Source: Verrucomicrobiia bacterium
GTDB lineage: Bacteria > Verrucomicrobiota > Verrucomicrobiia > JADLBR01 > JAIBCM01
Length of the DNA stretch: 64,000 nucleotides
Reading direction: 5' to 3'
Assembly (NCBI GenBank): GCA_019694135.1
Contig: JAIBCM010000003.1
Location: 198,626 to 262,625, forward strand
Of the stretch, positions 21,963 through 51,423 are shown in pieces. Each line of letters starts with the position of its first letter. Positions within the stretch are counted from its first letter, which is position 1. The position numbers and the translations under genes are program-made. A model generated the notes under the pieces. The model did not search any database. It was given only the letters and a program-made list of their open reading frames with translations, and had not been told where the DNA came from.

Positions 21963-21970
21963 ATTTTTAC

Positions 21971-22561: not shown

Positions 22562-22576
22562 AGATCGTCTCCTTGT

Positions 22577-25035: not shown

Positions 25036-25047
25036 CTCTCTTTCACC

Positions 25048-25159
25048 TATCATCCTCGGGCTTGCTTTACACCTGTCCGAAGTGTGCCCAAAAACTCTAA
25101 GTGTTATCTTGCAACTCCAACCACACCTTTTGTCATCCTCGGGCTTGACCCGGGTATCC
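25048..25159. repeat. Two direct copies of a 17-bp motif (tatcatcctcgggcttg / tgtcatcctcgggcttg) about 83 bp apart
   Basis: Read directly from sequence; second copy followed by cccggg-centred palindrome. Same core (TGTCATCC..) recurs at 56125..56196 and 57825..57893. Confidence 0.6.
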
Positions 25160-25239
25160 ATATTCATAAGACATAATTAGCATCAAAGCATTAAGATTAA
25201 ACACTGGCTTCCCAATAGAGTTTCAGCTTAGCTCTGTTT

Positions 25240-27345: not shown

Positions 27346-27664
27346 TGAATCTTTTTTCTTAACAAGCTCCGCTCAACGCTTTGCTCTGTACTATTTTCGC
27401 TTTCCGCGTGGCGAATGGAGAGTTGACCTGTTCACACCCTGTTCACATCAAAATAGACGGCTTGGAGTAACGAGGTAGTCAGGAAAAAGATGACAATTGT
27501 TGACAAAAAAGGTGTTTTCAATCGCTGAAAAAGTTGAAAAAAACATTTTCTTAAGGAGTTTAACCTAATCATCAATTCTTAAATGCTTCGCTTTTGCTTT
27601 ATATTGTCAATCTTTTTATTGTTTATTTCGATAACACGACTTATCTAATACATGACATAAAACT

Positions 27665-28396: not shown

Positions 28397-28402
28397 ATTT
28401 GC

Positions 28403-29317: not shown

Positions 29318-29321
29318 CCAA

Positions 29322-29996
29322 TTAACGTGTTTGATTCAAAGTCGTATGATTTTGAACTCTCTGATTTTCCACAATTGGTGGTGGAGAGTAAGTATCAGGA
29401 TTAATTGCATCCGGCATACGATAGCTTGCAATTTTATCAACAGAAAAAGCGGAAATTTTTACTTGATCGCTTTGGTTACCACCTAATAAATAAACCGTTT
29501 TTCCATCTTTTGAAACTCCAGCAACAAAACCGACATGCCCCTTGCCTTTTCCATAATCAATCACTGCAATGGCACCATAAACAGGTTCTTCAGCTTCCTG
29601 TCCCCAATTTTTCCAAGACAAAGCTGCCGCACTATTGGTACCTGGATAACCCGCTTGTTCCATAGTCCAATTTACAAATGAACTACACCAAGGTGTTTCG
29701 TCATCATTAGCTCTCAATTTAGTGGAATCATGATACTCAATAATTCGCTCAGAATTCTCAGAACCGCTAATTTCTTTAATACCACTCGCATCTTCACAGC
29801 CTGCCATAAGCATCCAGTTGCTAGGATCACAAATTGGAGCAACCAATTCTTTTGTAGTCAAAATATCACGTCGCCCTCGTCCAATCGCTAAAAAATTTTT
29901 GGGCTGCATATAAAAATTCAAACCTGCAAAAAAACCTTCTTTTAAAGGTGCTTGAGGTGCTTTTCCCACACCACTCATAATAATTTCGTTTTCCAT
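29322..29996 (-). CDS. CHAP / NlpC-P60-like cysteine peptidase-amidase domain protein with unknown N-terminal domain
   Basis: C-terminal TPWCSSFVNW (Cys) ... GHVGFV (His) resembles CHAP-type papain-fold amidases; no signal peptide. Confidence 0.5.
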   Translation of the reverse strand: MENEIIMSGVGKAPQAPLKEGFFAGLNFYMQPKNFLAIGRGRRDILTTKELVAPICDPSNWMLMAGCEDASGIKEISGSENSERIIEYHDSTKLRANDDETPWCSSFVNWTMEQAGYPGTNSAAALSWKNWGQEAEEPVYGAIAVIDYGKGKGHVGFVAGVSKDGKTVYLLGGNQSDQVKISAFSVDKIASYRMPDAINPDTYSPPPIVENQRVQNHTTLNQTR

Positions 29997-30001
29997 ATTT
30001 T

Positions 30002-30262
30002 TTATTTTCTAAGATTTTTGTTTAATGCAATTTGAAATTCACTAACAAGTTGATCACTCGTAATTCCACTCAAAATCCAAATCATTAACTGTTCATAAGA
30101 AACAGCACGCCCAAAACGTTTTTTAATTAGCTCTGAGGCTTGAAAAAATTCTCGCATAATTAGATCGGGAATTTTTAGCACAACATCATGTTGAGTTTCT
30201 AAAAGAGCTTTTTCTGATTTTTTCACATTGAAAATATTCTTTAAAGAAACAAATTCGCTCAA
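30002..30262 (-). CDS. Small hypothetical protein (tandem paralogue of 30263..30532)
   Basis: 86 aa; shares E-L-M-V/I-W-I-L-S-x-I block with neighbour. Confidence 0.5.
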   Translation of the reverse strand: MSEFVSLKNIFNVKKSEKALLETQHDVVLKIPDLIMREFFQASELIKKRFGRAVSYEQLMIWILSGITSDQLVSEFQIALNKNLRK

Positions 30263-30532
30263 CTATTTTCTTCCACTCTGTTTCGCAGCTGATCGCAAGG
30301 CCAGAGCCTCTTCAAATTCTTTAATCAAATAATCTTCTCGAATTTCACTTAAAATCCAGACCATCAATAATTCGGGTGAAATATCGTAATCGTATTCTTT
30401 TTGAATTTTTTGAGAAGCTCGCTGAAATTCACGAAGCAAATTTTGAGGCAATTTCAAACAAAACTCGACATCTTTATTAGAAAAATTCTTTTTAACTGTT
30501 TTCTGAGTGTTACGAGTAGTTTTTTTCTTCAC
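30263..30532 (-). CDS. Small hypothetical protein (tandem paralogue of 30002..30262)
   Basis: 89 aa; LREFQRASQKIQKEY...LLMVWILSEI similar to the adjacent gene; stop abuts next start. Confidence 0.5.
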   Translation of the reverse strand: MKKKTTRNTQKTVKKNFSNKDVEFCLKLPQNLLREFQRASQKIQKEYDYDISPELLMVWILSEIREDYLIKEFEEALALRSAAKQSGRK

Positions 30533-30582
30533 TAGATTAAGAATATCCGATTTATAAAAAATATCAATCGACTAACTTTAGT

Positions 30583-31023
30583 TTAATAATTTAACTTTGG
30601 TGCAACTGCCCCCGGCGTGGGAGCGGTTTGCAATTCGCCCTTGTTAAGCGCATCCCAAACTGATTGTTTACAATCTACACTTTCTCCCCCCTTCACAGCT
30701 AGTTTACGACCCACTTCATTATTATTCACGTCCATTACTATTTCTTCAGGTGGATTCTCGCCATATTGCTCATGAATATTCCCAATCTTTTCTGCCTGGT
30801 CAGTACCTAACTCTTGTGCCATTCGACATGATAAATATGCATGACGAAAAGCATCTCTTTGCCCGTTATGTCTACCAGGAAGCCCAGTTTTATCGGAAAC
30901 TTGAAAAGCTTCTTCTCCTATATTACTAGCTTCATTAGCATCCAGAGGCCCAACCGCTAAAACTTGAGTTCTAACTTCAGGTTTATCAAAAAATTTTTTA
31001 ATTTTATCATAAATTTCACCCAT
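30583..31023 (-). CDS. Hypothetical protein with conserved RDAFRHAY (R-x4-H) and HE motifs
   Basis: 146 aa; motif fits the HEPN R-x4-6-H pattern, but assignment is speculative. Confidence 0.45.
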   Translation of the reverse strand: MGEIYDKIKKFFDKPEVRTQVLAVGPLDANEASNIGEEAFQVSDKTGLPGRHNGQRDAFRHAYLSCRMAQELGTDQAEKIGNIHEQYGENPPEEIVMDVNNNEVGRKLAVKGGESVDCKQSVWDALNKGELQTAPTPGAVAPKLNY

Positions 31024-31052
31024 ATAAAATCCCTTTGTTTTTTCTTATTCTA

Positions 31053-31895
31053 TCAATTTTGTGCTTTTTGAGCAACAAAATAACGATCTTTCAAAGATAA
31101 ATCTTTCAGAACCTCTATTTCAATTAAACCGCTCTGCTCTCCCATGTGCATGACCTCATTTTTTTGATCTTCTCCCATTTCCAACAAAAGCCATCCACCC
31201 GATTTTAAATAATTATCAGCCTTTTCGATAAGATTTCGGATGATAGCCAAACCATTTTCTCCACCATCCAAAGCTGGCTCAGGATCCGCTTGAACTTCTG
31301 GAGATAAATTTTTTAAAATGGAAGTAGGTAGATAAGGAGGATTTGAGACGATAATGTCCACTAAAGGCATTGTTTCTTCCAAAAGATTACATTGAATCAA
31401 TTGCAATCGATCCACCACTTTTAATTTTTCAGCATTCTCTTGGGTCAAAGCGAGCGCTTCAGAGCTTATATCACTTGCAATTGCCTTCCATCCCGGTTTT
31501 TGCAATAGAAACGTAATGGCAATAACTCCGCTCCCCGTCCCCACATCCCACAAAACTCCTTCTTTTTGAGTCGCTTTACTCAAAGCAAGCTCCACCAATT
31601 TTTCCGTTTCAGGACGTGGCACTAAAGCTCGCGCATCCGATTTAAAAGTGTAACCATAAAACTCAGCAGTTCCAATAATATGTTGCAAAGGCTCACGGCT
31701 TGCACGTCGTTTTACCAAGTTCCTCAATCGCGCTAAATCGCCCTCGTCAATTTCTCGATCAAACTGCAAGTAAAGATCAAGCCGTTTGACTCCCAACCCA
31801 AAAGCGATCAACTGTTCCGCATTCAATCGCGGCGAATCAACTCCCTGTTTCTGAAAATAATCGGAAGTAATTTGAATGAGCTCCAAAAGCTTCAT
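31053..31895 (-). CDS. prmC: Release factor glutamine N5-methyltransferase
   Basis: NPPY motif (IVSNPPY) and SAM-binding VGTGSG; 4-nt overlap with prfA. Confidence 0.9.
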   Translation of the reverse strand: MKLLELIQITSDYFQKQGVDSPRLNAEQLIAFGLGVKRLDLYLQFDREIDEGDLARLRNLVKRRASREPLQHIIGTAEFYGYTFKSDARALVPRPETEKLVELALSKATQKEGVLWDVGTGSGVIAITFLLQKPGWKAIASDISSEALALTQENAEKLKVVDRLQLIQCNLLEETMPLVDIIVSNPPYLPTSILKNLSPEVQADPEPALDGGENGLAIIRNLIEKADNYLKSGGWLLLEMGEDQKNEVMHMGEQSGLIEIEVLKDLSLKDRYFVAQKAQN

Positions 31896-32977
31896 TGCAA
31901 CTCCGCCAATCGCGCTTCCAAATGATTTTTTCTTAAGGCTTCTAGCATCTCTTCAATGCTACCCTCCATGAATTCGCTCAAATTATAAAGTGTTAAATTA
32001 ATGCGATGATCCGTGATTCGATTTTGCGGATAATTGTAAGTGCGAATCTTTTCATTGCGATCTCCCGTCCCTACTTGGCTTTTGCGATTGGCAGCATATT
32101 TGGCATCCTCTTCTGCGCGCTGCTTTTCTAACAATCGAGAACGTAAAACATTTAAGGCTTTTTCACGATTTTTTAATTGGGATCGTCCATCCTGACATCG
32201 CACAATCATACCGCTAGGAATATGCAAAACTTGCACCGCTGAATCAGTAGTATTAACACCTTGCCCACCTGGCCCTCCCGAGCGACACACCTCAATACGC
32301 AACTCATCCGGACGAATCACAATATCCACCTCCTTCGCTTCGGGCAAAACTGCTACCGTGGCGGTGGAAGTGTGAATACGACCTTGCGCTTCAGTTGCAG
32401 GAACACGCTGCACACGATGCACACCACTTTCAAATTGAAAATATTTGTAAACCTCTTCACCAAACACTTGAAAAATCACTTCGCGAATACCGCCCAATTC
32501 GCCTGGACTCAAATCCATAACCTCCCATTTCCAGAACGGATTTTTTTCAATATAACGCGTATACATTCGGTAAAGATCAGCAGCAAACAAAGTCGCTTCA
32601 CTGCCACCCGTGCCCGCGCGAATTTCAACAATCACATTTCGCTCTTCATCAGGATCGGCTGGCAATAAAGCCGCCTGAGCCGCTAAAGCTAAATGAGCAT
32701 GTTTCGCCTTTAACTCCTCTTGTTCCGCCTCCAACATCTGAAGAAACTCAGGATCTTGCTCTGCACCATCCGCTAAAAGTTTTTCATTGGCCGTCAAATT
32801 GCGAGAAACTTCTTGCAACGCTTCATAGTCAGCCAAAGCGGCTTTTAAACGACTATGTTCCCGCGTGACCTCCTGCGCCTTTTGAGGATTAGAAAAAACG
32901 CTTCCCTCAGAAAGTTGCGCTTCCACTTCCTGAAACCGTTTTCGCAATCGTTCAAAATGAGGTGTTAAATCCAGCAT
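31892..32977 (-). CDS. prfA: Peptide chain release factor 1
   Basis: GGQ motif (SGGPGGQGVN) and RF-1-like body. Confidence 0.9.
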   Translation of the reverse strand: MLDLTPHFERLRKRFQEVEAQLSEGSVFSNPQKAQEVTREHSRLKAALADYEALQEVSRNLTANEKLLADGAEQDPEFLQMLEAEQEELKAKHAHLALAAQAALLPADPDEERNVIVEIRAGTGGSEATLFAADLYRMYTRYIEKNPFWKWEVMDLSPGELGGIREVIFQVFGEEVYKYFQFESGVHRVQRVPATEAQGRIHTSTATVAVLPEAKEVDIVIRPDELRIEVCRSGGPGGQGVNTTDSAVQVLHIPSGMIVRCQDGRSQLKNREKALNVLRSRLLEKQRAEEDAKYAANRKSQVGTGDRNEKIRTYNYPQNRITDHRINLTLYNLSEFMEGSIEEMLEALRKNHLEARLAELQ

Positions 32978-33056
32978 AAACTATATTTTTTCGTTACTAA
33001 AAACAAAACAGGCGAGGAAAGTTAACCCTTCCTCACCTGCTAAAATGATATCTCAG

Positions 33057-33290
33057 CTACTTCTTAGCTTTAGTTTTTTTATTTCCAGCAATCAAAGTCG
33101 TGCCGTAGCGTTTACTAAATTTTTCTACGCGCCCCGCAGTATCGACAAATTTTTGCTGGCCAGTAAAGAAAGGATGACAAGCCGCACAAATACTAATATG
33201 CAAATCACGCTTCGTCGAACGAGTATGATAAGTTGCGCCACAGGAACAACGAATCGTTGTTTCCGCATAATCTGGGTGAATCTCAAGTTT
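33057..33290 (-). CDS. rpmE: 50S ribosomal protein L31
   Basis: MKLEIHPDY ... CxC...CxxCHP zinc-ribbon pattern; start set at Met 12 of tracked ORF. Confidence 0.85.
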
Positions 33291-33410
33291 CATAAACAAT
33301 ATTTCGTTAGCATGCTTTTTCATGAAGTCAACTGCCGCTTTTTAGACAAGAAATAACATTGATCCTCAGCTAGACTGGCTTATGCTAAAGATAAGAAACG
33401 ATAAGCTTTT

Positions 33411-36400
33411 ATGATTACGCATCAACCTTACCATTTTACTCTGAACGGAAAAAAAATTCAAATTACTGATGAATCTCCGAATTTAACCCTTCTGCAATAT
33501 TTGCGACAAAATGGTCACATTGGCTCCAAAGAAGGTTGTGCTGAGGGTGATTGCGGCGCGTGCACAGTAGCGATTTTGGAACGCAATGCAAAAGGTGAAG
33601 CCTCTTATCGTGCGGTAAATAGTTGCATTATGCTCCTCCCCATGTTGGCGGGTCGCGAAGTGATCACTTCGGAAGGATTAGCCTGTCATGAAACCTTACA
33701 CCCGGTGCAGCAAGCGATGGTGGCCAATCACGGCTCGCAATGCGGTTATTGCACGCCGGGTTTTGTCATGTCACTCTTTGAAGCTTACTATCGCAAAGAT
33801 CTGAAGCAACAATGGCAAATTAACGATCAACTTTGCGGCAATTTATGTCGTTGCACGGGTTATCGACCTATTCGCGATGCTGCAGTGGAAGTATTAACAG
33901 GACGATTTAAAAATGGTGTGACTGATCCTTTTGCGGAAAGATTGGAATGCGTTAAAAATGAGTCACAATTAGCGCCCGGTCAATATGCGCCTAATTCGAA
34001 ACAATTTTTCTTACGTCCCAGTTCTCTCAAAGAGCTTTTGCAAATGATTCATGAGTTTCCCGATGCGCGACTTATCGCAGGCGGTACAGAACTGGGAGTC
34101 GATATTGCAAAAAATTTCAAATATCATCCTTACTTAATTTCCACAGAAGCCGTAGGGGAACTCAAAACGATTACCTCTACCAAACAAGAATGGCACATTG
34201 GCGCCGCAGCTACTCTCACCCAAATTGAGGAAACGTTACAAGGCGAAATTCCTTCCATTCAAAAAATGTTAACCGTATTTGCATCGCGCCAGATTCGCAA
34301 TCGCGCCACGCTTGGAGGAAACCTGGTAAACGCCTCCCCTATTGGCGATATGGCACCGGTTTTATTGACTTTAGACGCGCGTCTCATTGTTGCCTCGATG
34401 GATGGTGAAAGGGAAATTCCGATTGATCAATTTTTCCTGGCTTATCGCAAAACTGCTTTAGAACCTCGCGAAATTTTGAAATCCATTATTATTCCCAGAC
34501 AATTACCCGGGCGCGCCAATTCCTTCAAAGTCTCTAAGCGAATGGAATTGGATATTAGCACCGTGGCTGCTGCATTTCGTGTGGAATTGGATGATGCAGC
34601 ACAGGTTAAAACCGCGCGTCTTGCTTATGGGGGTGTCGCAGCAACACCTGTACGCGCTAAAAAAACAGAACAGTTTTTACTTAATAAAGCGTGGAATCGC
34701 GAAACATTGACTGAAGCAATGGCTATCATTAAAGATGAATTCACGCCTATCACCGATGCACGCGGCACTGCGGATTATCGTCGTGAACTCATCCCTAGTT
34801 TATTGGAAAAATTTTTCGATGAAGAAGAATTTCCCATCAATTATAATGCCATTACGCCGATTCCAGCTCCCGCAATTCGACCGATTCCACATGAAAGCGG
34901 TCATAAACATGTCGCTGGCACCGCAATTTATGTCGACGATGCAGCGGAACCTGCTGGTATGCTCGAAGTCTGGCCAGTTTGTTCGCCTTACGCCCATGCG
35001 CGAATTATTAAACGCGATGCTCATCTTGCAAAACAAATGCCTGATATTGTTGCCGTGCTCATGGCAGAAGATGTGCCAGGTGAAAATGATGTGGGCGCGG
35101 TGCGACACGATGAAATTTTGCTCGCTGACAAAGAAACGCTTTACCACGGTCATCTGGTCGCACTAGTAGTTGGAAAAACTCAGGAAGCCTGTCGCGCAGC
35201 AGCCGCAAAAGTTCAAGTAGAATACGAACCTTTGGAGCCTGTAATTGATTTAAAAAAAGCAATCGCTCAAAACATGTTTCATACTGATCCGCATGTGATG
35301 GAACGAGGCGACGCAAAGAAAGTATTAAACAATTCGCCCAACACTTTAGTTGGCGATTTTCATTTTGGCGGTCAGGAACATTTTTATCTCGAAACTCACG
35401 CGGCATGGGCCGAACCGGGCGAAGATGGAGAAATGTTTGTGAGTTCATCCACGCAACACCCGTCCGAAATTCAAATTGTTGTCGCTCGCGTTTTGGGTGT
35501 TTCACGACACAAAGTCGTCTGCCAAAGCCCGCGCATGGGCGGTGGATTTGGTGGAAAAGAAACGCAAGGCAACACTCCCGCTGCGCTTGCTGCTATTGCT
35601 GCCCGAAAAACTGGTAAACGCGTCCGAGTGCGTCTCAACCGAGAACAAGACATGATTCTTAGCGGAAAACGTCATCCGTTTTATGCGCAATTTAAAATCG
35701 GTTTTGATAACGAAGGCAAATTACTGGCTTTGCAGGCGGATCTTTTTGCCGATGGGGGTTGGGCTTTGGATTTATCGCAACCTGTGGCCGATCGTGCGCT
35801 TTTTCATTTAGACAACTCTTATTACCTTCCCAACGTTCGCGCTACCAGTCGTGTTGTGAAAACTCATATTGCTTCCAACACAGCATTCCGCGGTTTTGGC
35901 GGTCCTCAAGGCATGTTGGTAATTGAAGAAATTATGGATCGCATCGCGCGTCAATTAGGTTTACCTCCCGAAACGGTTCGCGAGCGAAATCTTTATCATG
36001 GCACGGGTGAAACGAACACAACGCACTACGGGCAAGTTATCGAAGATAATCGTTTGCAAAAAATTTGGCATGAACTCATTCGCTCTTCCGACTTTCATCA
36101 ACGTCGTAAACAATTAAAACAACGCAATGCAGAAAATGCCCGCTTTAAACGCGGCATTGCCATTACGCCGGTTAAATTTGGGATTTCTTTCACTTTGACA
36201 CACATGAATCAGGCTGGAGCTTTTGTAGTGATTTATGCCGATGGCAGTGTGCAACTCAACCACGGCGGCACAGAAATGGGGCAAGGGCTTCACACTAAGA
36301 TGATAGCGGTCGCTGTGAAAGAGCTGGGCGTCAAAGTCGAACAAATTCGTGTGATGAACACAAGCACCGATAAAGTGCCAAACACCTCTCCTACTGCTGC

Positions 36401-37220
36401 TTCCAGCGGCTCCGATCTCAATGGACAAGCCGTGAAAAATGCCTGTGTCATATTGCGCGAACGTTTGACACCCGTGGCAATGAAATTGTTGGAGGAAGAA
36501 TTTCAGCAAAAATCGTCCGGGATCATTTTTGAAGATGGCGAAGTTTATGACAAAAAATTTCCGCACAACAAAATTTCTTTTATCGCTCTGACCCAACGCG
36601 CTTATGTCGAACGCATCAGTTTATCAACCACGGGTTTCTTCGCGACTCCCGGTATTTATATGGACTGGAGCAAGGGCAAAGGAAATCCTTTCCTTTATTT
36701 TGCCTGCGGTGCAGCAGTGACGGAAGTAGAAATCGATAGTTACACGGGCATGAATCGCATTTTGCGAGTCGATATTTTGCATGATGTTGGAAGCTCTCTT
36801 AACGAAGCGGTGGATCGTGGCCAAATCGAAGGTGCGTTTGTTCAAGGCATGGGCTGGTTAACCTGCGAAGAATTAAAATGGGATGATAAAGGCAAGCTCC
36901 TTACTAAATGCGCTAGTACTTATGCAATTCCTGCCATTAGCAACGCACCGATTGAATTTAATGTGAAACTGCTGCCCGATGCGGCACAACACAACACCAT
37001 TCACGGCAGCAAAGCCGTGGGAGAACCACCTCTCATGCTTGCAATTTCTGTGCGTGAAGCGCTTCGTGACGCTATCGCAGCCTTTAGCGAGTCAGGCGAA
37101 CAAATTCCTCTTCCCTCACCCGCTACGAATGAAGCGATTTATTTAACTTTGAAAAATAGGCAAACTTCAAAAAGTAACAAATCTAACAAAGAAAAGAAAT
37201 CTCTTAAAGTCTCTGCTTAA
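33411..37220 (+). CDS. Xanthine dehydrogenase, single-chain (2Fe-2S + FAD + molybdopterin domains fused)
   Basis: N-terminal 2Fe-2S cysteines (CAEGDCGACTV; CGYCTPG), FAD-binding middle, molybdopterin domain with GGGFGGKE; 1269 aa; adjacent to guaD-like and xdhC genes. Confidence 0.85.
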   Translation: MITHQPYHFTLNGKKIQITDESPNLTLLQYLRQNGHIGSKEGCAEGDCGACTVAILERNAKGEASYRAVNSCIMLLPMLAGREVITSEGLACHETLHPVQQAMVANHGSQCGYCTPGFVMSLFEAYYRKDLKQQWQINDQLCGNLCRCTGYRPIRDAAVEVLTGRFKNGVTDPFAERLECVKNESQLAPGQYAPNSKQFFLRPSSLKELLQMIHEFPDARLIAGGTELGVDIAKNFKYHPYLISTEAVGELKTITSTKQEWHIGAAATLTQIEETLQGEIPSIQKMLTVFASRQIRNRATLGGNLVNASPIGDMAPVLLTLDARLIVASMDGEREIPIDQFFLAYRKTALEPREILKSIIIPRQLPGRANSFKVSKRMELDISTVAAAFRVELDDAAQVKTARLAYGGVAATPVRAKKTEQFLLNKAWNRETLTEAMAIIKDEFTPITDARGTADYRRELIPSLLEKFFDEEEFPINYNAITPIPAPAIRPIPHESGHKHVAGTAIYVDDAAEPAGMLEVWPVCSPYAHARIIKRDAHLAKQMPDIVAVLMAEDVPGENDVGAVRHDEILLADKETLYHGHLVALVVGKTQEACRAAAAKVQVEYEPLEPVIDLKKAIAQNMFHTDPHVMERGDAKKVLNNSPNTLVGDFHFGGQEHFYLETHAAWAEPGEDGEMFVSSSTQHPSEIQIVVARVLGVSRHKVVCQSPRMGGGFGGKETQGNTPAALAAIAARKTGKRVRVRLNREQDMILSGKRHPFYAQFKIGFDNEGKLLALQADLFADGGWALDLSQPVADRALFHLDNSYYLPNVRATSRVVKTHIASNTAFRGFGGPQGMLVIEEIMDRIARQLGLPPETVRERNLYHGTGETNTTHYGQVIEDNRLQKIWHELIRSSDFHQRRKQLKQRNAENARFKRGIAITPVKFGISFTLTHMNQAGAFVVIYADGSVQLNHGGTEMGQGLHTKMIAVAVKELGVKVEQIRVMNTSTDKVPNTSPTAASSGSDLNGQAVKNACVILRERLTPVAMKLLEEEFQQKSSGIIFEDGEVYDKKFPHNKISFIALTQRAYVERISLSTTGFFATPGIYMDWSKGKGNPFLYFACGAAVTEVEIDSYTGMNRILRVDILHDVGSSLNEAVDRGQIEGAFVQGMGWLTCEELKWDDKGKLLTKCASTYAIPAISNAPIEFNVKLLPDAAQHNTIHGSKAVGEPPLMLAISVREALRDAIAAFSESGEQIPLPSPATNEAIYLTLKNRQTSKSNKSNKEKKSLKVSA

Positions 37221-38490
37221 CACCCGTAATTTTTTTCTTTTTTTCTTCGCTTTCCTCTTGTTGTTCTTGCTGCTCTTGCTTTTCAGATTCAGGGTCTTTG
37301 AGCAAGGGAGATTTTTGCATTTTATCGATCTGTTCTGCAGTCCAGCGTTTGGCATTTGAAGCAGGATCAAATTCTCTATTAATATTACAAACTGCCATAA
37401 CATTTCTTGCATCTTCGGGCTTTGGCGGGCAAGAGTATTTGTCAGCATGATACGGGTAATGATGATCCTGCGTTAAAACATGACCAATTTCATGAGCTAA
37501 AACGAAAGGCACTTTTGTATCAGACATCACAACATTGTTAATACGATTATCATCAGGACTTTTATCGTTTAAAATCGTGTCTTCCTTGTAAATTTTAGCA
37601 TAAGCTACTGCTATATTATCTTTTGAAGGAGGATCCACCTTATCAAACTTGCCCACATAAAAAACCTGAACATCTCTAGGATTTGGAGTTGCTAATTTAT
37701 CAAATAATACCTTTTCATCGCTTTCGCTGAAACCATCCGATAAATTGACACCCTCCGGAACATCGACAGAAACAATATTGGCATTAATCTTAATCCCAAC
37801 CGATGCATAAATCTCATTAGCCTCTTCAACTTGCCTCTCAACATCTTCTCGGCTCGCCGCTTCTTGACCATCTTTTTTAAGAATATTAATGGTTATATCA
37901 AGTTCTTTAACAATAGGCACTTTAGCTGTGGTTGAAATATTTTTTTCAGGATAATCAACCTTAACTTCACCTCCCAGCATTGTTTGAAAGGTTTGATCGC
38001 ATTGCATCACTTTCTTATCACATTGATTATCTTCAATTTTATTTACAACTACAGCATCATCAATGGCATCAGACGTTAATAATAAGGGTTTCGACTCAAA
38101 AATCCCCGACCCTTCTGCCGTTTCGTTTAAGACAACTTTTCTGTCTTTCTCATCATATTTAGGATTTGGATTTTGAGTGGATAATGTAACATTTATTTGT
38201 TTTTCACCACTTTCATTGATATCTTTCAATCGAATAAAAAACTTATTGTCATCGTTATTGGGATCAAAGGTTGCTTTTCCAGGATTAACTCCATCTTTAG
38301 TTTTTACATAATGAGCTTCAACAAAAGATTTTTCCATGGTCCCCACGTTAAGCTCCTCTGTTGGCTTTTTCTCAGCATCAAGAATTTCTAAAACGGGCGG
38401 ACCAGCAGCAGCTTGAAAAACGGTTTGATTAGAGTTTCGATTGGTTTCGGTTTGTTGAGACGACTCTTCAGGTTTTCTGATTTGTCCCAT
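37204..38490 (-). CDS. Hypothetical protein with HExxH zinc-metallopeptidase-like motif (paralogue of 1623..2873)
   Basis: VLAHEIGHVLTQDHH near C-terminus; EIYASVGIKI block aligns with EIYASQGIKL of the paralogue; Glu/Lys-rich C-terminal tail; no signal peptide. Confidence 0.6.
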   Translation of the reverse strand: MGQIRKPEESSQQTETNRNSNQTVFQAAAGPPVLEILDAEKKPTEELNVGTMEKSFVEAHYVKTKDGVNPGKATFDPNNDDNKFFIRLKDINESGEKQINVTLSTQNPNPKYDEKDRKVVLNETAEGSGIFESKPLLLTSDAIDDAVVVNKIEDNQCDKKVMQCDQTFQTMLGGEVKVDYPEKNISTTAKVPIVKELDITINILKKDGQEAASREDVERQVEEANEIYASVGIKINANIVSVDVPEGVNLSDGFSESDEKVLFDKLATPNPRDVQVFYVGKFDKVDPPSKDNIAVAYAKIYKEDTILNDKSPDDNRINNVVMSDTKVPFVLAHEIGHVLTQDHHYPYHADKYSCPPKPEDARNVMAVCNINREFDPASNAKRWTAEQIDKMQKSPLLKDPESEKQEQQEQQEESEEKKKKITGVKQRL

Positions 38491-38585
38491 GAAAAAGACA
38501 TATAAGCTAAAATTAATTATATTTCAAATGCAATATTTTTATTCAACTTGCTCTAAAATTTAGCTTTGTTAGGTTAGACTTTTAT

Positions 38586-39053
38586 ATGAAAGAACAATTC
38601 ATGCGAGAAGCGATCCATATGGCGGATCATGGAATGTGTAAGGGTCATGGAGGGCCGTTTGGAGCGGTTATTGTTAAAGATGGAAAAGTGATCGGTCGCG
38701 GATGCAATCAAGTGACTTCCACCAATGATCCTACCGCTCATGCCGAAATGGTTGCCATTCGTGACGCATGTAAAAATGTGAAAGATTTTTCTCTGGATGG
38801 CGCTGAAATTTACACCAGTTGTGAACCGTGTCCCATGTGTTTAGCAGCGATTTATTGGGCGCGAATTGCTAAAATTTATTACGCGAACACTCGCAAAGAT
38901 GCTGCGGATATTGGGTTTGATGATGATTTTATTTATCGTGAAGTTCCGCTGCCTTTGGAAAAACGTTCGCTCAAGATTGAACCTTTACTGCGCGAAGAAG
39001 CGCAACGCGCTTTTCAAGATTGGCTCAAAAAAGAGGATAAAATTCCTTATTGA
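38586..39053 (+). CDS. guaD: Guanine deaminase, cytidine-deaminase fold (GuaD-type)
   Basis: HAEMVAIR...CEPCPMC zinc motif; overall pattern recalled as similar to small Bacillus-type guanine deaminase; in purine catabolism context. Confidence 0.75.
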   Translation: MKEQFMREAIHMADHGMCKGHGGPFGAVIVKDGKVIGRGCNQVTSTNDPTAHAEMVAIRDACKNVKDFSLDGAEIYTSCEPCPMCLAAIYWARIAKIYYANTRKDAADIGFDDDFIYREVPLPLEKRSLKIEPLLREEAQRAFQDWLKKEDKIPY

Positions 39054-39102
39054 GTCGAAGTTAAAGGCGCGCATCTTATGATAGGATTAAGATGCTGAAT
39101 TT

Positions 39103-40017
39103 ATGACTCATTTTTTTGAACAGATTGCTACTGTGTCGCAATCCGCTCAGCCTGCGGTTTTAGGCATCATTACGCGGGTAAAAGGTTCCAGCCCTCAAAA
39201 GCCCGGCGCTAAAGCGCTTTTTTTCCCGGATGGCCGCATCATCGGAACTTTGGGCGGTGGCTGTTTGGAAGCAGAAATTCAAAAACGGGCGATTGCTTCG
39301 TTGCAAACGCAAAAAGCTGAATCTTTTGATCTGTTGCTAGATCATGATTTTGGTTGGGATGATGGGCTTATTTGTGGTGGTAAAGTTTTTGGCCTTATTT
39401 TACCGCAAGCAATCCAAGAAATTTCGCTTTGGCAAAAACTGGCTCGAAGAGAAGAAAAAATTCGGTGGGGTATTGATGAAAATTTTACTGTCGTAGAAAA
39501 TCCGGTTAAAGATAAGGTTTTATACGAAGAAACCACTTATCCTCCGGTGCATTTATGGATTGCCGGTGCAGGACACATTGCCAAAGCTCTGGCGCCTTTG
39601 GCGGCTTCATTAGATTTTTCTGTAACAGTTTTTGACGATCGCCCTACCCTTGCCAGTCACGAAAATTTTACTAAAGAAATCCAGCTTAAAACCGATTATT
39701 GGGATAATCTTTTAACCATTCGCCCACCCGATCATCAAAAAACGTTTGGCGTAATTGTCACTCGAGGTCATAAACATGACGCCTTGGTGCTACGACATTG
39801 GATTCATTACTCTTTCGACTTTTTAGGAATGATTGGCAGCAAGAGAAAGGTTCAAATTATTCGCGATCACTTTCTCCACGAAAAATTAGCTACTGAAATC
39901 CAATTTAATCGCGTACAATGTCCCGTAGGGATTAATATCGAAGCCCAAAGTCCGCAAGAAATTGCAGTGAGCATTGCAGGTCAATTGATTCAATCGCGTT
40001 CATCATTAATTTTTTAA
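39103..40017 (+). CDS. xdhC: XdhC/CoxI-family xanthine dehydrogenase accessory protein
   Basis: XdhC-like N-terminal domain (GTLGGGCLEAE) and Rossmann-like C-terminal domain. Confidence 0.8.
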   Translation: MTHFFEQIATVSQSAQPAVLGIITRVKGSSPQKPGAKALFFPDGRIIGTLGGGCLEAEIQKRAIASLQTQKAESFDLLLDHDFGWDDGLICGGKVFGLILPQAIQEISLWQKLARREEKIRWGIDENFTVVENPVKDKVLYEETTYPPVHLWIAGAGHIAKALAPLAASLDFSVTVFDDRPTLASHENFTKEIQLKTDYWDNLLTIRPPDHQKTFGVIVTRGHKHDALVLRHWIHYSFDFLGMIGSKRKVQIIRDHFLHEKLATEIQFNRVQCPVGINIEAQSPQEIAVSIAGQLIQSRSSLIF

Positions 40018-40027
40018 TTTCACCAGC

Positions 40028-40771
40028 TTAATCATTCGCTCGTTTAAATTCTCGCAAACGCCCTTTAAACGCCAGCTGCACCCATTCCCAGCGTTTATTA
40101 AGGGAAAGTCGTGCTGGAATCAAAGGCATAAACCCAACTAAATTTTGATTTCTTAACGCCGCTTCAAGATTGTTTTGCTCTCGAATTAAAGCATTACTGA
40201 TATCTTCATCCGTAATCGTTCGCGATTTTTCGAGTGGATTGCCAATTTGAATTAAAATAAAAGGTTTTTCTTCTTTCAAAAATTCATAGCGAAAAATAAC
40301 CGGTAAAAGTTGCGCGCGCGGCACGTTATTAGCCAAATAGGCTGTTCCCTCTTTTACTTCAATGGGAGTGTAGATAGAAGTCGTCTTTCCTTGAGGGAAA
40401 ATCCAGCATAATGATTCAGGATTTTGCAATAATTGAATCGTATAACGCACCGAAGCCGCCGCACGAAGAGGATTGGACGTGTCGACCGAATACATTCCCA
40501 GCCAAGTGAAAAAACGATAATATTTTAATTGTTTTTCCTCCATCATACAAAAAGTCGCTTTTTGCGAATTGAATCGTGTTAGATAAAAAGTCAAAAAACC
40601 ATCCCACCAATTAGTATGATTAGCAAAACAAATAGCTGGATGCGTTTTTTCCAATTTAGAATAGTTTTCTAAACCTTTAACATAAATGCCTGAAAAATTA
40701 CGTCGCAAAAGCCAGCGACAATAAAGGTAAAAAAGACTGTCCAACAAAGGATTTTTATTGGCGGGAATCAC
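40028..40771 (-). CDS. Lysophospholipid (1-acyl-glycerol-3-phosphate-type) acyltransferase family protein
   Basis: HxxxxD acyltransferase motif (HTNWWD) and downstream FPQG-like block. Confidence 0.6.
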   Translation of the reverse strand: MIPANKNPLLDSLFYLYCRWLLRRNFSGIYVKGLENYSKLEKTHPAICFANHTNWWDGFLTFYLTRFNSQKATFCMMEEKQLKYYRFFTWLGMYSVDTSNPLRAAASVRYTIQLLQNPESLCWIFPQGKTTSIYTPIEVKEGTAYLANNVPRAQLLPVIFRYEFLKEEKPFILIQIGNPLEKSRTITDEDISNALIREQNNLEAALRNQNLVGFMPLIPARLSLNKRWEWVQLAFKGRLREFKRAND

Positions 40772-41642
40772 AAGAACCCTTTTTATAAAGCCAATAAGCT
40801 TTTAAAACAAGTCGGAGTTTTTTGAATAAAGAGACATGATGCCTAACAGAAACATCATAGTCGTGTTTGGCAATCTCATCCAAAATCGCAGCATACACAT
40901 ATCTCATAATCCAAACCGTAAATTGAGAACCATCATCAGCCAAAGAAGAAATGCCTTTTTCGCTTGTTAGATAATATTCTTGCGCACGTTGAGCAAAGAA
41001 AATGGCGTATTTTTTCCAATTTTCCTGAGTAAAACCGTTTGTTAAATCGACCTGATACGACTCCAATTCTTCTGCAGGTAAATAAACTCGATGGTTTTCA
41101 TAATCTTCTTTCACATCACGTAAAATATTGGTCAATTGCATCGCAATCCCCAGGCTAATCGCGTGCTCTTTCGCGTTCGGATCTTTTATTTCAAAAATGT
41201 GACTCATGATAAGTCCCACCACTGACGCAACGTAATAACAATAATCCTCCAGATCTAACCAGGTCTTGATTTGAATGGAAGGTTGAGCATCCATTTCTAC
41301 TCCTTTGATTAAATTTTCAAAGTGGCCTTTCGGGATTCGATAAGTTCGAATCGTGGAATAAAAAGCGTCTGCCCAATCGAATTGCTCTGGAACATTTTTG
41401 GAATAAAATTGATTCAGTATCTTTCTAAGGTTCTGAGCAACTTCCAATTGATCTTCAAAAGATGTGCTGCAATCCATTCTATCATCGACATAACGACAAA
41501 AAGCGTAAACAGCATAAGCAGCATCTTTTTTCTTTTTAGGTAAAGCGAAGGAAGCAAAGTAAAAACTTCTAGCATGTTGACGAGTCATTTCCCGAGCGGC
41601 TTGGAAACTTTGCTGCAAATGTGAAGATTTAGCGGTTGGCAT
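40755..41642 (-). CDS. Squalene/phytoene synthase family protein
   Basis: Asp-rich motifs YAFCRYVDDRMD and ILRDVKEDY typical of trans-isoprenyl diphosphate synthase head-to-head enzymes. Confidence 0.75.
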   Translation of the reverse strand: MPTAKSSHLQQSFQAAREMTRQHARSFYFASFALPKKKKDAAYAVYAFCRYVDDRMDCSTSFEDQLEVAQNLRKILNQFYSKNVPEQFDWADAFYSTIRTYRIPKGHFENLIKGVEMDAQPSIQIKTWLDLEDYCYYVASVVGLIMSHIFEIKDPNAKEHAISLGIAMQLTNILRDVKEDYENHRVYLPAEELESYQVDLTNGFTQENWKKYAIFFAQRAQEYYLTSEKGISSLADDGSQFTVWIMRYVYAAILDEIAKHDYDVSVRHHVSLFKKLRLVLKAYWLYKKGSCDSRQ

Positions 41643-42477
41643 TCAAAAAATAATTACGCTGCTTTTCACTAATTGGCATTTCCATTTTTTCCATTACCAT
41701 TAGTAAATCCTCCCAAACTTTGCGTTTTTCAGTGTTGCTCTGATTTCTTAAAAGATAAGCGGGATGATAAGTTGGCATTACTGGGATATCTTGAAATTGA
41801 AGCCAGTGCCCACGCAATTTCCCAATCGGCGCTTCGACCCCTAAAAGACCAGTAACCGCCGTTGCACCCAACGCAATAATAGCTTTCGGTTGAATTAGTT
41901 CAATCTGCTCCTTGAGATAAGGTAAACAAGTGTTCATCTCTTCAATGGTTGGTTTACGATTGCCTGGCGCACCTGGCGGCATATCGGGACGACATTTCAA
42001 AACATTGGAAATATAAACTTCATCACGCGATAAATCCATTGCTTCCAACATTTTATTGAGTAATTGTCCAGCCCGCCCCACAAAAGGTTCCCCCAAACGA
42101 TCCTCATCCGCTCCAGGGGCTTCTCCAACCAACATCAATTGGGCATCAATATTGCCAATACCGAAAACAACCTGAGTGCGACTCCTGACAAGATGCGGAC
42201 ACTTTTGACAGACCAATGCAATGTTTTTTAAATGTTCAAGTTTCTTTTTTTTATCGTTTTCAGAAAGATGTTCATGATGCGTTTTTTCTGAATTTTCTTT
42301 TTTCATAGAGGATAGATTTGGAGTTATTTTGGAAAAATCCGCAACACTTGAAAATCGAATAAAACGATCTCCTCGTTTTTTGCGTTGCTCTAAATATTGC
42401 AAAAGAATTTCAGAAGTTTTTGCCATGACGCAGTTGCTCAAGTAAGTGAATAAAATCTTCGGGCAAACCCGCCTCAA
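41629..42477 (-). CDS. Uracil-DNA glycosylase, family 4 type
   Basis: GEAPGADEDRLGEPFVGRAGQLL motif and CxxC near N-terminus; true start may be internal. Confidence 0.75.
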   Translation of the reverse strand: MRRVCPKILFTYLSNCVMAKTSEILLQYLEQRKKRGDRFIRFSSVADFSKITPNLSSMKKENSEKTHHEHLSENDKKKKLEHLKNIALVCQKCPHLVRSRTQVVFGIGNIDAQLMLVGEAPGADEDRLGEPFVGRAGQLLNKMLEAMDLSRDEVYISNVLKCRPDMPPGAPGNRKPTIEEMNTCLPYLKEQIELIQPKAIIALGATAVTGLLGVEAPIGKLRGHWLQFQDIPVMPTYHPAYLLRNQSNTEKRKVWEDLLMVMEKMEMPISEKQRNYFLNANR

Positions 42478-43318
42478 TTACCATCTCTTTTTTAGTAAGA
42501 GGATGCTGAAAAATAAGTCGTCTCGCATGCAGCATTTGCCGAGGTGCTTGAGATGCAACTTTACCATAAAGTTTATCTCCAAGCACCGGACATCCTATGG
42601 AAAGCAAATGAACTCGGATTTGATGCGTACGCCCTGTTAAAATTTGACACTCTAAAAAGCTCGCAGCCTTGAATTTCTCTATTATTTTATATCGCGTAAT
42701 AGCTAGTTTGCCTTTTTTCGAAACTGCCATCTTTTTTCGATGAACGGGATGCCTCTCTATTGCTGATATAATTTCTCCTTCCGATTTCTTAGGGAAAGAT
42801 TGGGCTAAAACTTGATAAAATTTTTGAATTTTTCGATCCTTAAATTGCTGTGATAAAGCCTGATGAGCTTTATCAGTTTTAGTAACAAGCAACACGCCAC
42901 TTGTTTCCTTATCCAAACGATGAACGATTCCTGGCCTTTCCACACCACCGATCCCCGAAAGCGAGCCCCGGCAATGATGCAACAAAGCGTTAACCAGTGT
43001 CCCTTCAGAATGTCCAGGAGCCGGATGCACAACCAAACCCTGCGGTTTGTTAATTGCTAGAAATTCATCATCTTCATATAAAATCTGCAATGCAATTTCT
43101 TCGGGTTTCAAATTCAAAGATTGCATCGGCGGAAAATGAATCGTTATCTCATCTCCTATTCGAACTCGAATAGAAGATTTCGCCGATTTTTGATTTACTA
43201 AAATACACGAACCGCGAATTAATTGTTGAATCCGAGAGCGCGTTAATTCAGGATTTTTTTTAACCAACCATTGATCAACGCGCAACCCCGCTTCATCCAC
43301 AAATAAAACCCGATCCAT
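42410..43318 (-). CDS. RluA-family pseudouridine synthase (RluD-like)
   Basis: S4-like N-terminus and catalytic HRLDKETSGVLLV motif. Confidence 0.85.
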   Translation of the reverse strand: MDRVLFVDEAGLRVDQWLVKKNPELTRSRIQQLIRGSCILVNQKSAKSSIRVRIGDEITIHFPPMQSLNLKPEEIALQILYEDDEFLAINKPQGLVVHPAPGHSEGTLVNALLHHCRGSLSGIGGVERPGIVHRLDKETSGVLLVTKTDKAHQALSQQFKDRKIQKFYQVLAQSFPKKSEGEIISAIERHPVHRKKMAVSKKGKLAITRYKIIEKFKAASFLECQILTGRTHQIRVHLLSIGCPVLGDKLYGKVASQAPRQMLHARRLIFQHPLTKKEMVIEAGLPEDFIHLLEQLRHGKNF

Positions 43319-43337
43319 ATCAATGGATTACTCTAAC

Positions 43338-43814
43338 CTACTCAGGGAAAAATTTTTCAAATTTTACCGTGCCATCTGCCATAACAACGACATTTCCCGA
43401 AGAATATATCTGATTTTTTCCAACAAACAAATAAAGTTGATCTCGATCCTCTGCATAAAAAAAATCTTTAGGACAAACTCCACCATAAAAAAAATCTGGT
43501 AGATCACCTGCTTGATGTTTGGGCTGAGTCGGATCATACCAAGCCTCATCAGGAACACCATAAGCTTTAAGCTGCCTTTGCCACCATTTCATATCACTGG
43601 ACAATTGTTCCGTAGATTTTGCAGTTTCTGGATTCATATCATCAAACATTTTTTGCGCTCCAGAATAAAGTTGTTGAGCACGAGAGAGACACTTGGTTGT
43701 ATTAATGTGCTTACGAAACGTGAAAAATGTGGGTATTGAAATCCCTATCAACAATGCGATTAGAGACATTGTAATTAAAAGTTCTAAAAGAGTAAAAGCC
43801 TTTTGCGATTTCAA
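43338..43814 (-). CDS. Prepilin-type N-terminal cleavage/methylation domain protein (pseudopilin-like)
   Basis: N-terminus KAFTLLELLITMSLIALLIGI matches prepilin leader plus hydrophobic helix. Confidence 0.7.
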   Translation of the reverse strand: MKSQKAFTLLELLITMSLIALLIGISIPTFFTFRKHINTTKCLSRAQQLYSGAQKMFDDMNPETAKSTEQLSSDMKWWQRQLKAYGVPDEAWYDPTQPKHQAGDLPDFFYGGVCPKDFFYAEDRDQLYLFVGKNQIYSSGNVVVMADGTVKFEKFFPE

Positions 43815-43825
43815 ACCTTAAGACA

Positions 43826-44491
43826 TTAACGATAAACTTTCGTTGTGGGAATACCAAAAAAATTCGGAACAGTAGAGATTTTTTTTGCCTCAACTATAAC
43901 ACCTGGGACTGTTTTAGAACTTCTTATAATAGTAACCCCAGTTTGCCTATCAAAATCCACACGCATATTATTGTTATCAGAGGTGTACTCAACGTTACCT
44001 CTCATTATTTTTCCAGGCGCTTTTTTCTGATAAAACATTATTCCTTCAACTAATAATTCAGCTGAAAATCTTTGAATAAATGGAATTTCTACGGGGCCAA
44101 ATGAAAAGGTAATATTCCTATTTTTAGAATCACCTGGTATAGAAATAATATTAGTCCCAGAACCTAGGGTGCTTCCAAAAGGTAAAACCAAAACGGATCC
44201 TCGCGTATTAACTTTTCTTCCCGCAACAAATAAAAACCCTTGCAAAACTCGACCTTCATGAAATCCCAGGGGGCTAAAATTTAAAGTAAAAGTAAAAAGT
44301 CCTCCATTCAAAACAAAAGTAAAACCTTCTCCAGTAGTATCATTAAAAGTAATAGGAATACGTTGTGGTCCAATCATACATTGATAAGTTCCAACAATTT
44401 TAATATCTCGTTCAGCTTGGGCTTTAAGCTGAGTACTGTTAACAAACACTAATGTTAAAACAACAAGTAAAATTATGATTTTTTGTTTCAT
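43826..44491 (-). CDS. Hypothetical secreted protein
   Basis: Signal peptide (MKQKIIILLVVLTLVFVNSTQLKA); no recognised motifs; sits between secretin and prepilin-like genes. Confidence 0.45.
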   Translation of the reverse strand: MKQKIIILLVVLTLVFVNSTQLKAQAERDIKIVGTYQCMIGPQRIPITFNDTTGEGFTFVLNGGLFTFTLNFSPLGFHEGRVLQGFLFVAGRKVNTRGSVLVLPFGSTLGSGTNIISIPGDSKNRNITFSFGPVEIPFIQRFSAELLVEGIMFYQKKAPGKIMRGNVEYTSDNNNMRVDFDRQTGVTIIRSSKTVPGVIVEAKKISTVPNFFGIPTTKVYR

Positions 44492-44495
44492 AGAC

Positions 44496-49454: not shown

Positions 49455-49460
49455 AATTAA

Positions 49461-51394: not shown

Positions 51395-51423
51395 ATTACT
51401 TTTTTCTCATTTCTCTATTTTTC

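What the first reader, a model, noticed from the sequence alone, without database searches (positions are those of the whole stretch)
37204..38490. Second HExxH paralogue embedded antisense within the purine catabolism cluster
This paralogue lies on the opposite strand between the xanthine dehydrogenase gene and guaD/xdhC, overlapping the xdh 3' end by 17 nt. It shares the EIYAS-GIK block and HEIGH spacing with 1623..2873 but has a Glu/Lys-rich tail. Its placement inside an otherwise coherent metabolic cluster suggests insertion or a functional link.
Basis: seen in the sequence. Interest (0 to 1): 0.5.

Follow-up and report, generated by a model that had tools for sequence, protein, structure and literature searches.

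The report
Variable accessory metalloprotease gene splitting xdh–guaD
The gene is a real but dispensable zinc-protease gene from a large unnamed family: some close relatives carry it between two purine-breakdown genes, others lack it or carry a very different version, so it is an accessory insertion and not part of purine metabolism.

Summary
ORF 37204..38490 (-) encodes a 428-aa HEIGH protein. It overlaps the xdh stop by 17 nt, diverges from guaD-xdhC, and is a true paralogue of 1623..2873 (BLASTP E=3e-14).

Comparative loci decide the interpretation.
- Four lineages carry the gene at exactly this site.
- Four very close lineages (XDH about 82-96% identical) have xdh followed directly by guaD.
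- Occupied and empty loci interleave on the XDH tree.
- Alleles at the site are 38-96% identical, while flanking proteins are 90-97% identical.
- Synonymous divergence disagrees with the flanks in both directions.

So this is a fast-evolving, recombining accessory protease gene at an indel hot spot. "Insertion" is supported and "purine-related function" is not. Substrate, location and export route are unknown. Interest is moderate.

The parts
37204..38490 (-). CDS of the 428-aa HExxH protein (NCBI MBX7157862.1, locus tag K1X66_05705, annotated as hypothetical protein)
   Evidence: Intact homologues at 96, 59, 54 and 38% identity. dN/dS 0.29-0.40.
38401..38490 (-). Residues 1-30: polar, disordered N-terminus (MGQIRKPEESSQQTE...) with no signal-peptide h-region
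   Evidence: pLDDT below 60. Maximum Kyte-Doolittle 15-residue mean is 1.16 in the first 50 residues and 1.23 over the whole protein.
37876..38400 (-). Residues about 31-205: all-beta Ig-like sandwich domain. It may be a prodomain or a binding domain. D145 and D165 are at least 90% conserved family-wide.
37297..37875 (-). Residues about 206-398: metzincin-fold catalytic domain
37480..37494 (-). HEIGH zinc-binding and catalytic motif (H333, E334, H337)
   Evidence: E334 and H337 are invariant and H333 is at least 90% conserved in 72 family members.
37459..37464 (-). H343-H344. H344 is the likely third zinc ligand (HExxH-x6-H). There is no Gly at the canonical +7 position.
   Evidence: H344 is at least 90% conserved. 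The third His lies at +10 to +12 across the family.
37396..37404 (-). N363-V-M365, candidate Met-turn
   Evidence: N363 and M365 are invariant in the 7-sequence alignment. The family consensus is NLM. Its position under the zinc site was not checked in coordinates.
37207..37296 (-). Residues 399-428: Glu/Lys/Gln-rich C-terminal helix. In this genome the last roughly 30 codons differ from all other alleles, which end ...EEKEK..RLVMR.
   Evidence: Window versus L001 is only 59% nt identical at 37200-37300.
37204..37220 (.). 17-nt convergent overlap of the xdh and HExxH 3' ends (11 nt in the other alleles). No terminator-like hairpin is present.
38491..38546 (.). AT-rich segment upstream of the HExxH gene. 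It is present only in occupied loci and presumably carries the gene's own promoter.
   Evidence: That it carries a promoter is inference.
38547..38575 (+). Conserved promoter-like element in front of guaD (TTGCTC, 16-17 nt spacer, TAnnnT). It occurs in occupied and in most empty loci.
   Evidence: Sequence comparison. It is absent only from L014/L015. Promoter function is inferred.
33411..37220 (+). Context: single-chain xanthine dehydrogenase (Fer2, Fer2_2, FAD, CO_deh_flav_C, hammerhead, MoCoBD)
38586..40017 (+). Context: guaD (CDA-type guanine deaminase) and xdhC
1623..2873 (+). Paralogue (416 aa) between leuB and an NHL-repeat gene

Best explanation
The ORF encodes a zinc endopeptidase of the metzincin structural clan. 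It belongs to a large family that no Pfam or NCBIfam model captures at threshold. Its layout is a disordered polar N-terminus, an Ig-like beta-sandwich domain, a catalytic domain with HEIGH-x6-H and an N-V-M Met-turn candidate, and a charged C-terminal helix. It is one of at least four paralogues in this Verrucomicrobiae genome. The gene is an accessory gene and not a purine-catabolism gene. It sits, together with its own upstream region, exactly between the xdh stop codon and the promoter-like element of guaD-xdhC. Within one narrow clade this site is either empty or occupied, and when occupied it holds alleles that differ as much as distant paralogues do. I infer that the site is kept variable by gain or loss and by homologous recombination through the conserved flanks and the more conserved gene ends. 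I infer that the protein works as a protease on proteins outside the cytoplasm (environmental, prey, host or competitor proteins), reaches them by a non-Sec route, and is under diversifying or frequency-dependent selection. Shown here: gene reality, fold, motif conservation, family size and architectures, multi-copy status, presence/absence polymorphism and discordant divergence. Inferred: catalytic activity, extracellular action, export route, selective agent, and promoter assignments.
Against: No signal peptide, lipobox or hydrophobic segment is present, so extracellular action needs an unidentified export route, and a cytoplasmic role is not excluded. The zinc motif lacks the canonical Gly and has the third His one residue further along than HExxHxxGxxH. 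No activity, expression or localisation data exist. The direction of change (loss versus gain) is unresolved, because no remnant of the gene is detectable in the empty spacers. All comparison loci come from metagenome assemblies or MAGs, so chimeric assembly cannot be wholly excluded, although five independent assemblies give the L003 allele. The low GC3 is not unique: secretin1 has 0.253. Only four occupied lineages are known, and dS is saturated for the divergent pairs, so positive selection could not be tested.
Confidence: 0.6

Rival explanations
1. Cytoplasmic stress or anti-phage defence protease. On this reading it is a single-gene abortive-infection or immunity function: the beta-sandwich domain senses an invader protein and the protease then cleaves a host or phage target.
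For: It has no signal peptide or membrane segment. It is polymorphic for presence or absence at a hot spot, has highly divergent alleles, and shows recombination discordant with the flanks. It is multi-copy. All of these are typical of defence genes.
Against: PADLOC gives only a 30-residue HExxH-level match to capP (E 0.007), and PHROGs only a motif-level hit. No partner genes or defence island lie nearby, and the neighbourhood is housekeeping. In most of the family the module is fused to extracellular adhesin, CBM or dockerin domains, which points outside the cell.
Confidence: 0.12
2. Functional partner of the purine cluster. For example, it could be a protease that processes or regulates the unusual single-chain XDH, by analogy with proteolytic XDH-to-oxidase conversion in mammals (this analogy rests on my own knowledge). 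Alternatively, its convergent transcription could tune xdh expression.
For: It holds the same position, orientation and 3' overlap with xdh in four lineages. The neighbouring XDH is a fused, eukaryote-like single chain. No terminator separates the convergent genes.
Against: Four close lineages with the same fused XDH (about 82-96% identical) lack the gene. Verrucomicrobia with 62-65% identical fused XDH also lack it. The L001 genome keeps the protease intact while its xdh carries five 1-nt indels. The paralogues are not near purine genes. A partner of a 93%-conserved enzyme would not be expected to drop to 38% identity.
Confidence: 0.05
3. A decaying or catalytically dead relic. On this reading the divergence reflects relaxed constraint, and the protein has no function or only a binding function.
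For: dN/dS is about 0.3-0.4, much higher than the 0.03-0.08 of most neighbours. The gene is dispensable in relatives. The zinc-site spacing is non-canonical. A few family members lack HExxH.
Against: All five alleles are full-length and free of stops. HEIGH, H344, and the N and M of the Met-turn candidate are invariant in the subfamily. dN/dS is well below 1. The window and L001 alleles show strong constraint in the catalytic domain (pN 0.004).
Confidence: 0.08
4. Cargo of a discrete mobile element (IS, integron cassette or MITE-like) that inserted site-specifically downstream of xdh.
For: There is a clean presence/absence difference whose boundaries are the xdh stop and the guaD promoter-like element. 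A 59%-identical homologue sits at an unrelated locus in a sample that also contains an empty xdh|guaD site.
Against: No transposase or integrase is present. There are no terminal inverted repeats and no target-site duplication; only short chance-level repeats were found. Homology between the L002 copy and the window is confined to the coding region.
Confidence: 0.07

Closest known systems
Fragilysin (BFT) and metalloproteinase II of Bacteroides fragilis (MEROPS M10C; PDB 3p24, 7pnd, 4on1)
   Different: Sequence identity is only 10-15%. TM-score is about 0.3 with rmsd about 14 A over both domains, so the domain packing or the N-domain fold is not shown to be the same. BFT has a signal peptide or lipoprotein signal and the canonical HExxHxxGxxH; this protein has neither. 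A zymogen or aspartate-switch role for the N-domain is untested.
Ulilysin / pappalysin family (M43) and mirolysin
   Different: There is no significant sequence match, the metal-site spacing differs, the N-terminal domain is different, and the Ca-binding and disulfide features were not examined.
Adamalysin / reprolysin (M12B; Pfam Reprolysin_5 PF13688, Reprolysin_4, Reprolysin_3)
   Different: The score of 24.0 bits is below the 27-bit gathering cut-off, the third His is at +11 and not +10, and there are no disintegrin or Cys-rich modules.
Strain-variable accessory genes at chromosomal hot spots (general phenomenon of flexible genomic islets flanked by core genes)
   Same: A fixed site between conserved core genes is either empty or filled with highly divergent alleles, and its genealogy is discordant with the flanks.
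   Different: It is a single gene with no integrase, tRNA or repeats. The islet lies inside what is otherwise a three-gene metabolic cluster.

Membership tests
Metzincin clan of zinc metallopeptidases | Catalytic-domain fold: five-stranded sheet, active-site helix and C-terminal helix | tested here: met
Metzincin clan of zinc metallopeptidases | Extended zinc motif HExxHxxGxxH/D | tested here: inconclusive
   HEIGHVLTQDHH has His at +10 and +11 but Thr in place of the Gly. Across the family the conserved third His (H344, at least 90%) lies at +10 to +12. HExxH itself is conserved.
Metzincin clan of zinc metallopeptidases | Conserved Met-turn beneath the zinc site | tested here: inconclusive
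   N363-V-M365 is invariant in the subfamily, and an N[LVIM]M motif was found in about 43 of 69 HExxH-bearing members. Model coordinates could not be inspected to confirm its position.
Pfam Reprolysin_5 (PF13688) / M12B | Score at or above the Pfam gathering threshold | tested here: not met
   24.0 bits against a 27-bit cut-off. The paralogue scores 22.7 bits.
NCBIfam named families (M6 domain, SVAGG) | Score at or above the curated cut-off | tested here: not met
   16-18 bits against cut-offs of 110-150.
Fragilysin family (M10C) | Significant sequence similarity across the prodomain and catalytic domain | tested here: not met
   The profile reaches only the catalytic part at E about 1e-3, 21 bits. 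The structural match over both domains has TM about 0.3.
Purine-catabolism gene cluster (xdh-guaD-xdhC) | Co-occurrence with the cluster across genomes that have it | tested here: not met
   Absent from L011, L014/L015, L016/L017, L019, L012 and L013. Paralogues lie elsewhere.
Sec/Tat-secreted or lipoprotein protease | N-terminal signal peptide with a hydrophobic core | tested here: not met
   Maximum 15-residue Kyte-Doolittle mean is 1.16 in the first 50 residues. No dedicated predictor was available.
Known anti-phage defence proteins (PADLOC-DB) | Match to a defence-protein model | tested here: not met
   Only capP, E 0.007, over 30 residues around HExxH.
Transposable element or integron cassette | Transposase or integrase, terminal inverted repeats, target-site duplication or attC | tested here: not met
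   and neighbour annotation.
Active peptidase | Zinc-dependent proteolysis | not testable with these tools
   Needs biochemistry.

The most novel reading that the evidence does not exclude
The subfamily (no signal peptide, semi-conserved MGKRKK-EES-QQ N-terminus, SPLLKDP motif and charged C-terminal helix, hypervariable core, several copies per genome) could be a repertoire of non-classically exported effector proteases. A Verrucomicrobiae lineage from wastewater-type habitats would use them against other organisms. Alleles would be swapped by recombination through conserved gene ends, and the N-domain would act as a fragilysin-like aspartate-switch prodomain (conserved D145 and D165).
Probability: 0.15. 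Interest if true: 0.6.

Novelty: new member of a known kind. Interest (0 to 1): 0.38.

Why it matters
It shows that a gene sitting inside a tidy metabolic cluster need not belong to it. Empty-site relatives settle that question without experiments. It also flags a large metzincin-like family, about 1000 50%-identity clusters centred on Planctomycetes/Verrucomicrobia-type proteins, that has no Pfam or NCBIfam model, an atypical zinc-site spacing and a characteristic Ig-like fore-domain. A family model and one biochemical characterisation would annotate many 'hypothetical proteins'. Finally, the sharp contrast between 38%-identical alleles and 93%-identical flanks marks a locus under unusual evolutionary pressure in an uncultured lineage. 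That makes it a candidate marker of biotic interaction.

Tried and rejected
1. Searching for more occupied or empty loci by pattern scans failed. The genome-contig scan with the XDH alignment returned only the already known MAG, and two metagenome-contig scans returned nothing.
2. I looked for a remnant of the protease gene in the empty-site spacers to decide loss versus gain. Local alignment scores equalled those of shuffled controls, so this was rejected as evidence.
3. Mobile-element hallmarks around the gene were sought. Only short chance-level direct and inverted repeats were found, and no terminator.
4. A riboswitch or other RNA element in the locus was sought. No Rfam hit was found apart from a sub-threshold wcaG match upstream of xdh.
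5. Defence or phage origin was tested. PADLOC and PHROGs gave only motif-level matches.
6. I asked whether the polar N-terminus is a degenerate Planctomycete-extracellular motif. No Pfam response was obtained even at E<=10, so this stays unsupported.
7. The AFDB Foldseek library was unavailable.
8. A literature search on metzincins in Verrucomicrobia and Planctomycetes gave nothing specific from the listed titles and abstracts; no paper was opened.
9. The first, shallow AF2 model (7 sequences, pLDDT 69) was superseded by the 72-sequence model.
10. A frameshift explanation for the odd C-terminal tail in this genome was considered. The alternative frames do not restore the consensus ...RLVMR ending, so a replaced or diverged segment is more likely.
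Full report
**Observation**

The minus-strand ORF 37204..38490 (ATG start, 428 aa) is present as described. Its stop codon (37204..37206) lies 17 nt inside the 3' end of the plus-strand gene 33411..37220.

Pfam identifies that neighbour as a single-chain xanthine dehydrogenase with Fer2, Fer2_2, FAD_binding_5, CO_deh_flav_C, hammerhead and two MoCoBD domains. The genes on the other side are a CDA-type guanine deaminase (38586..39053) and XdhC (39103..40017). The ORF is convergent with xdh and divergent from guaD across a 95-nt AT-rich spacer.

HEIGH is at residues 333-337. The protein is a true paralogue of 1623..2873: BLASTP E=3e-14 over the N-terminal 250 residues, with the catalytic regions aligning as well. 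Both carry IYAS-x-GIK about 106-112 residues before HEIGH. The target ends in a Glu/Lys/Gln-rich tail. All elements of the observation are confirmed.

**What the protein is**

No Pfam or NCBIfam model reaches its threshold. The best is Reprolysin_5 at 24.0 bits against a 27-bit cut-off.

The word-indexed search of 5.8 billion proteins found only five relatives. The exhaustive profile search told a different story: 1023 50%-identity clusters at E<=1e-3 and 168 at E<=1e-30. The roughly 350-residue two-domain module typically forms the C-terminus of proteins up to about 2000 aa. The N-terminal parts of those proteins carry Calx-beta, cadherin-like, Big, SdrD_B, cohesin/dockerin, Planctomycete-extracellular and GH25 domains.

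In a 72-member alignment E334 and H337 are invariant. H333, H344, D145, D165, A229, G232, P245 and G253 are at least 90% conserved. The consensus is LAHExGHxL-x5-H ... NLM.

With this alignment AlphaFold2 gives pLDDT 87.7 and pTM 0.87. The model has four parts:
- residues 1-30: disordered
- residues about 31-205: an all-beta sandwich
- residues about 206-398: an alpha/beta domain
- residues 400-427: a long helix

The zinc motif is atypical because there is no Gly at +7 and the conserved third His lies at +11. N363-V-M365 is a plausible Met-turn.

There is no hydrophobic segment anywhere in the protein, so no Sec or Tat signal or membrane anchor is evident.

**Genome and family context**

The window comes from a Verrucomicrobiae MAG (XDH 100% identical to an NCBI MAG protein). 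The target is MBX7157862.1, K1X66_05705, annotated 'hypothetical protein'. The rest of the window is core housekeeping DNA.

Two further family members, K1X66_00080 and K1X66_02530, belong to the same MAG, giving at least four paralogues. In a close relative the leuB-side locus holds a tandem pair of family members where the window has one.

**Comparative loci**

The same gene sits between xdh and guaD, in the same orientation and with an 11-nt 3' overlap, in three other lineages:

| Locus | Protein identity to window | Source |
|---|---|---|
| L001 | 96% | |
| L003-L007 (five independent assemblies) | 54% | |
| L008 | 38% | |

Other loci with the same flanking synteny have xdh followed directly by guaD:

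| Locus | xdh-guaD spacer | Source |
|---|---|---|
| L011 | 47 nt | |
| L014/L015 | 10 nt | |
| L016/L017 and L019 | 68-84 nt | |

On an XDH tree the occupied and empty loci interleave in both subclades. For example, the window (occupied) and L014 (empty) are 96% identical in XDH over the shared 650 columns. L003 (occupied) and L011 (empty) are 92% identical over the full XDH and 93% over those shared columns. At least two gain or loss events are therefore needed.

More distant Verrucomicrobia with the same fused XDH (62-65% identity) have other neighbours and no such gene. A 59%-identical homologue (P0002) lies in an unrelated context, in a sample that also contains an empty xdh|guaD locus. 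Homology there is confined to the coding region.

The indel comprises the coding region plus about 55 nt upstream. It ends at a conserved promoter-like element (TTGCTC, 16-17 nt spacer, TAnnnT) in front of guaD. That element is also present in most empty loci. No transposase, terminal repeats or target duplication were found, and no remnant of the gene is detectable in the empty spacers. The polarity of the change is therefore open.

**Evolutionary dynamics**

Against L008, the flanking proteins are highly conserved:
- XDH 93.4%, guaD 96.8%, XdhC 90.5% and acyltransferase 92.3% identical, with dS 0.5-0.9
- this protein only 38% identical, with dN 0.52 and dS 1.3-1.6

Nucleotide similarity breaks off about 140 nt inside the 5' end and resumes about 115 nt before the 3' end.

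Against L001 the pattern is reversed. Codons 1-390 have the lowest dS of 15 genes compared (0.078 versus 0.13-0.75; sliding identity 93-100% versus about 85-95%). The last roughly 35 codons, together with the XDH tail encoded opposite them, are only 59% identical.

The ranking of allele identities (window and L001, then L002, then L003, then L008) contradicts the XDH tree, where L008 groups with the window. Together these results indicate allele replacement and exchange by recombination, and not simple vertical divergence.

All alleles are intact, keep the metal-binding residues, and show dN/dS 0.29-0.40. Selection is therefore purifying but much weaker than on the neighbours, which mostly show 0.03-0.08. 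GC (0.368) and GC3 (0.273) are low. GC is the lowest of the 16 genes sampled, but GC3 is not unique.

**Interpretation**

The best-supported reading is a fast-evolving, recombining accessory gene for a metzincin-type protease. It lies in the gap between two transcription units (xdh, and guaD-xdhC with its own promoter-like element). The extracellular architectures of most family members suggest action outside the cytoplasm. However, the lack of any signal peptide in this subfamily leaves both the location and the export route unknown.

Four rivals were considered:
- **Defence or abortive-infection protease.** It fits the population pattern, but it has no PADLOC support and no partner genes.
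- **Dedicated purine or XDH partner.** It is contradicted by the empty sites, by L001 keeping the protease while its xdh carries five 1-nt indels, and by the extreme divergence.
- **Decaying relic.** It is contradicted by intact ORFs and conserved catalytic residues.
- **Cargo of a discrete mobile element.** No hallmarks were found.

**Comparison with known families and novelty**

Structurally it is a metzincin, closest to ulilysin, fragilysin/MPII and the adamalysins. It fails the sequence thresholds of every named family and has a non-canonical metal-site spacing. I therefore file it as a new, unnamed family within a known clan. I do not file it as a member of M12B, M10C or M43. The genomic behaviour, a variable islet between core genes, is a known kind of phenomenon.

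Interest is moderate. The finding cleanly separates 'inside a cluster' from 'part of the cluster'. It also exposes a large unannotated protease family with an unusually variable locus. No new mechanism is demonstrated.

Noticed in passing
window 1623..2873; L020:4313-5908 and L020:6001-7251: The first paralogue also sits in a variable spot. In a close relative (leuB 92% identical) the leuB-side locus holds a tandem pair of family members, with an extra 531-aa copy carrying HETFH, and a umuDC-like pair beyond the NHL-repeat gene. The paralogue itself is only 79% identical and the NHL protein 76%.
   Followed up: partly
L001:11265-15084 (xdh of MAG GCA_041395165.1): The xdh orthologue in the 96%-allele genome carries five single-nucleotide indels relative to the window and is called as three fragments. 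Several indels lie in short homopolymers, so either pseudogenisation or assembly error is possible.
   Followed up: partly
window 37150..37300: A segment of about 100-150 nt spans the C-terminal tails of both convergent genes. It is only about 59% identical to L001, although both sides are 85-100% identical. The window's XDH tail and protease tail differ from those of all other alleles.
   Followed up: partly
window 38547..38575: A conserved promoter-like element (TTGCTC, 16-17 nt, TAnnnT) lies 10-15 nt upstream of the guaD start. It is shared by occupied and empty loci and missing only in L014/L015, where guaD follows xdh after 10 nt.
   Followed up: partly
window 33411..37220: XDH is a single 1269-aa chain that fuses the Fe-S, FAD and molybdopterin parts in the eukaryote-like order. 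Thousands of similar proteins were found, the best at about 60% identity, and many of them are labelled Verrucomicrobia or Pedosphaera.
   Followed up: no
window 43338..53205: A type IV pilus or T2SS-like cluster has two consecutive large secretin genes (798 and 853 aa, the first with TPR), a pseudopilin, a 593-aa PilM-like protein and several ORFs without Pfam hits.
   Followed up: no
P0002 (L002:10001-11413): The 59% homologue has a 37-residue insertion right after HEIGHLL that contains 'ILVDEIGRL'. This looks like a degenerate duplicate of the 'LSHEIGHLL' active-site helix.
   Followed up: no
window 56355..57746 (-) and 57984..59234 (+): Two divergent ORFs of 463 and 416 aa have no Pfam match. 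They are not members of the HExxH family by hmmsearch.
   Followed up: no
window 1..64000: GC skew on the plus strand is strongly and uniformly negative (cumulative -5.75 over 64 kb), so the whole window lies on one replichore with the plus strand as the C-rich strand.
   Followed up: no
L015:1-1324: Upstream of xdh in the empty-site relative, the L31-prfA-prmC genes are replaced by a reverse-transcriptase gene (RVT_1), a ParE-toxin pair and a cytochrome P460-like gene. This is another local rearrangement in the clade.
   Followed up: no
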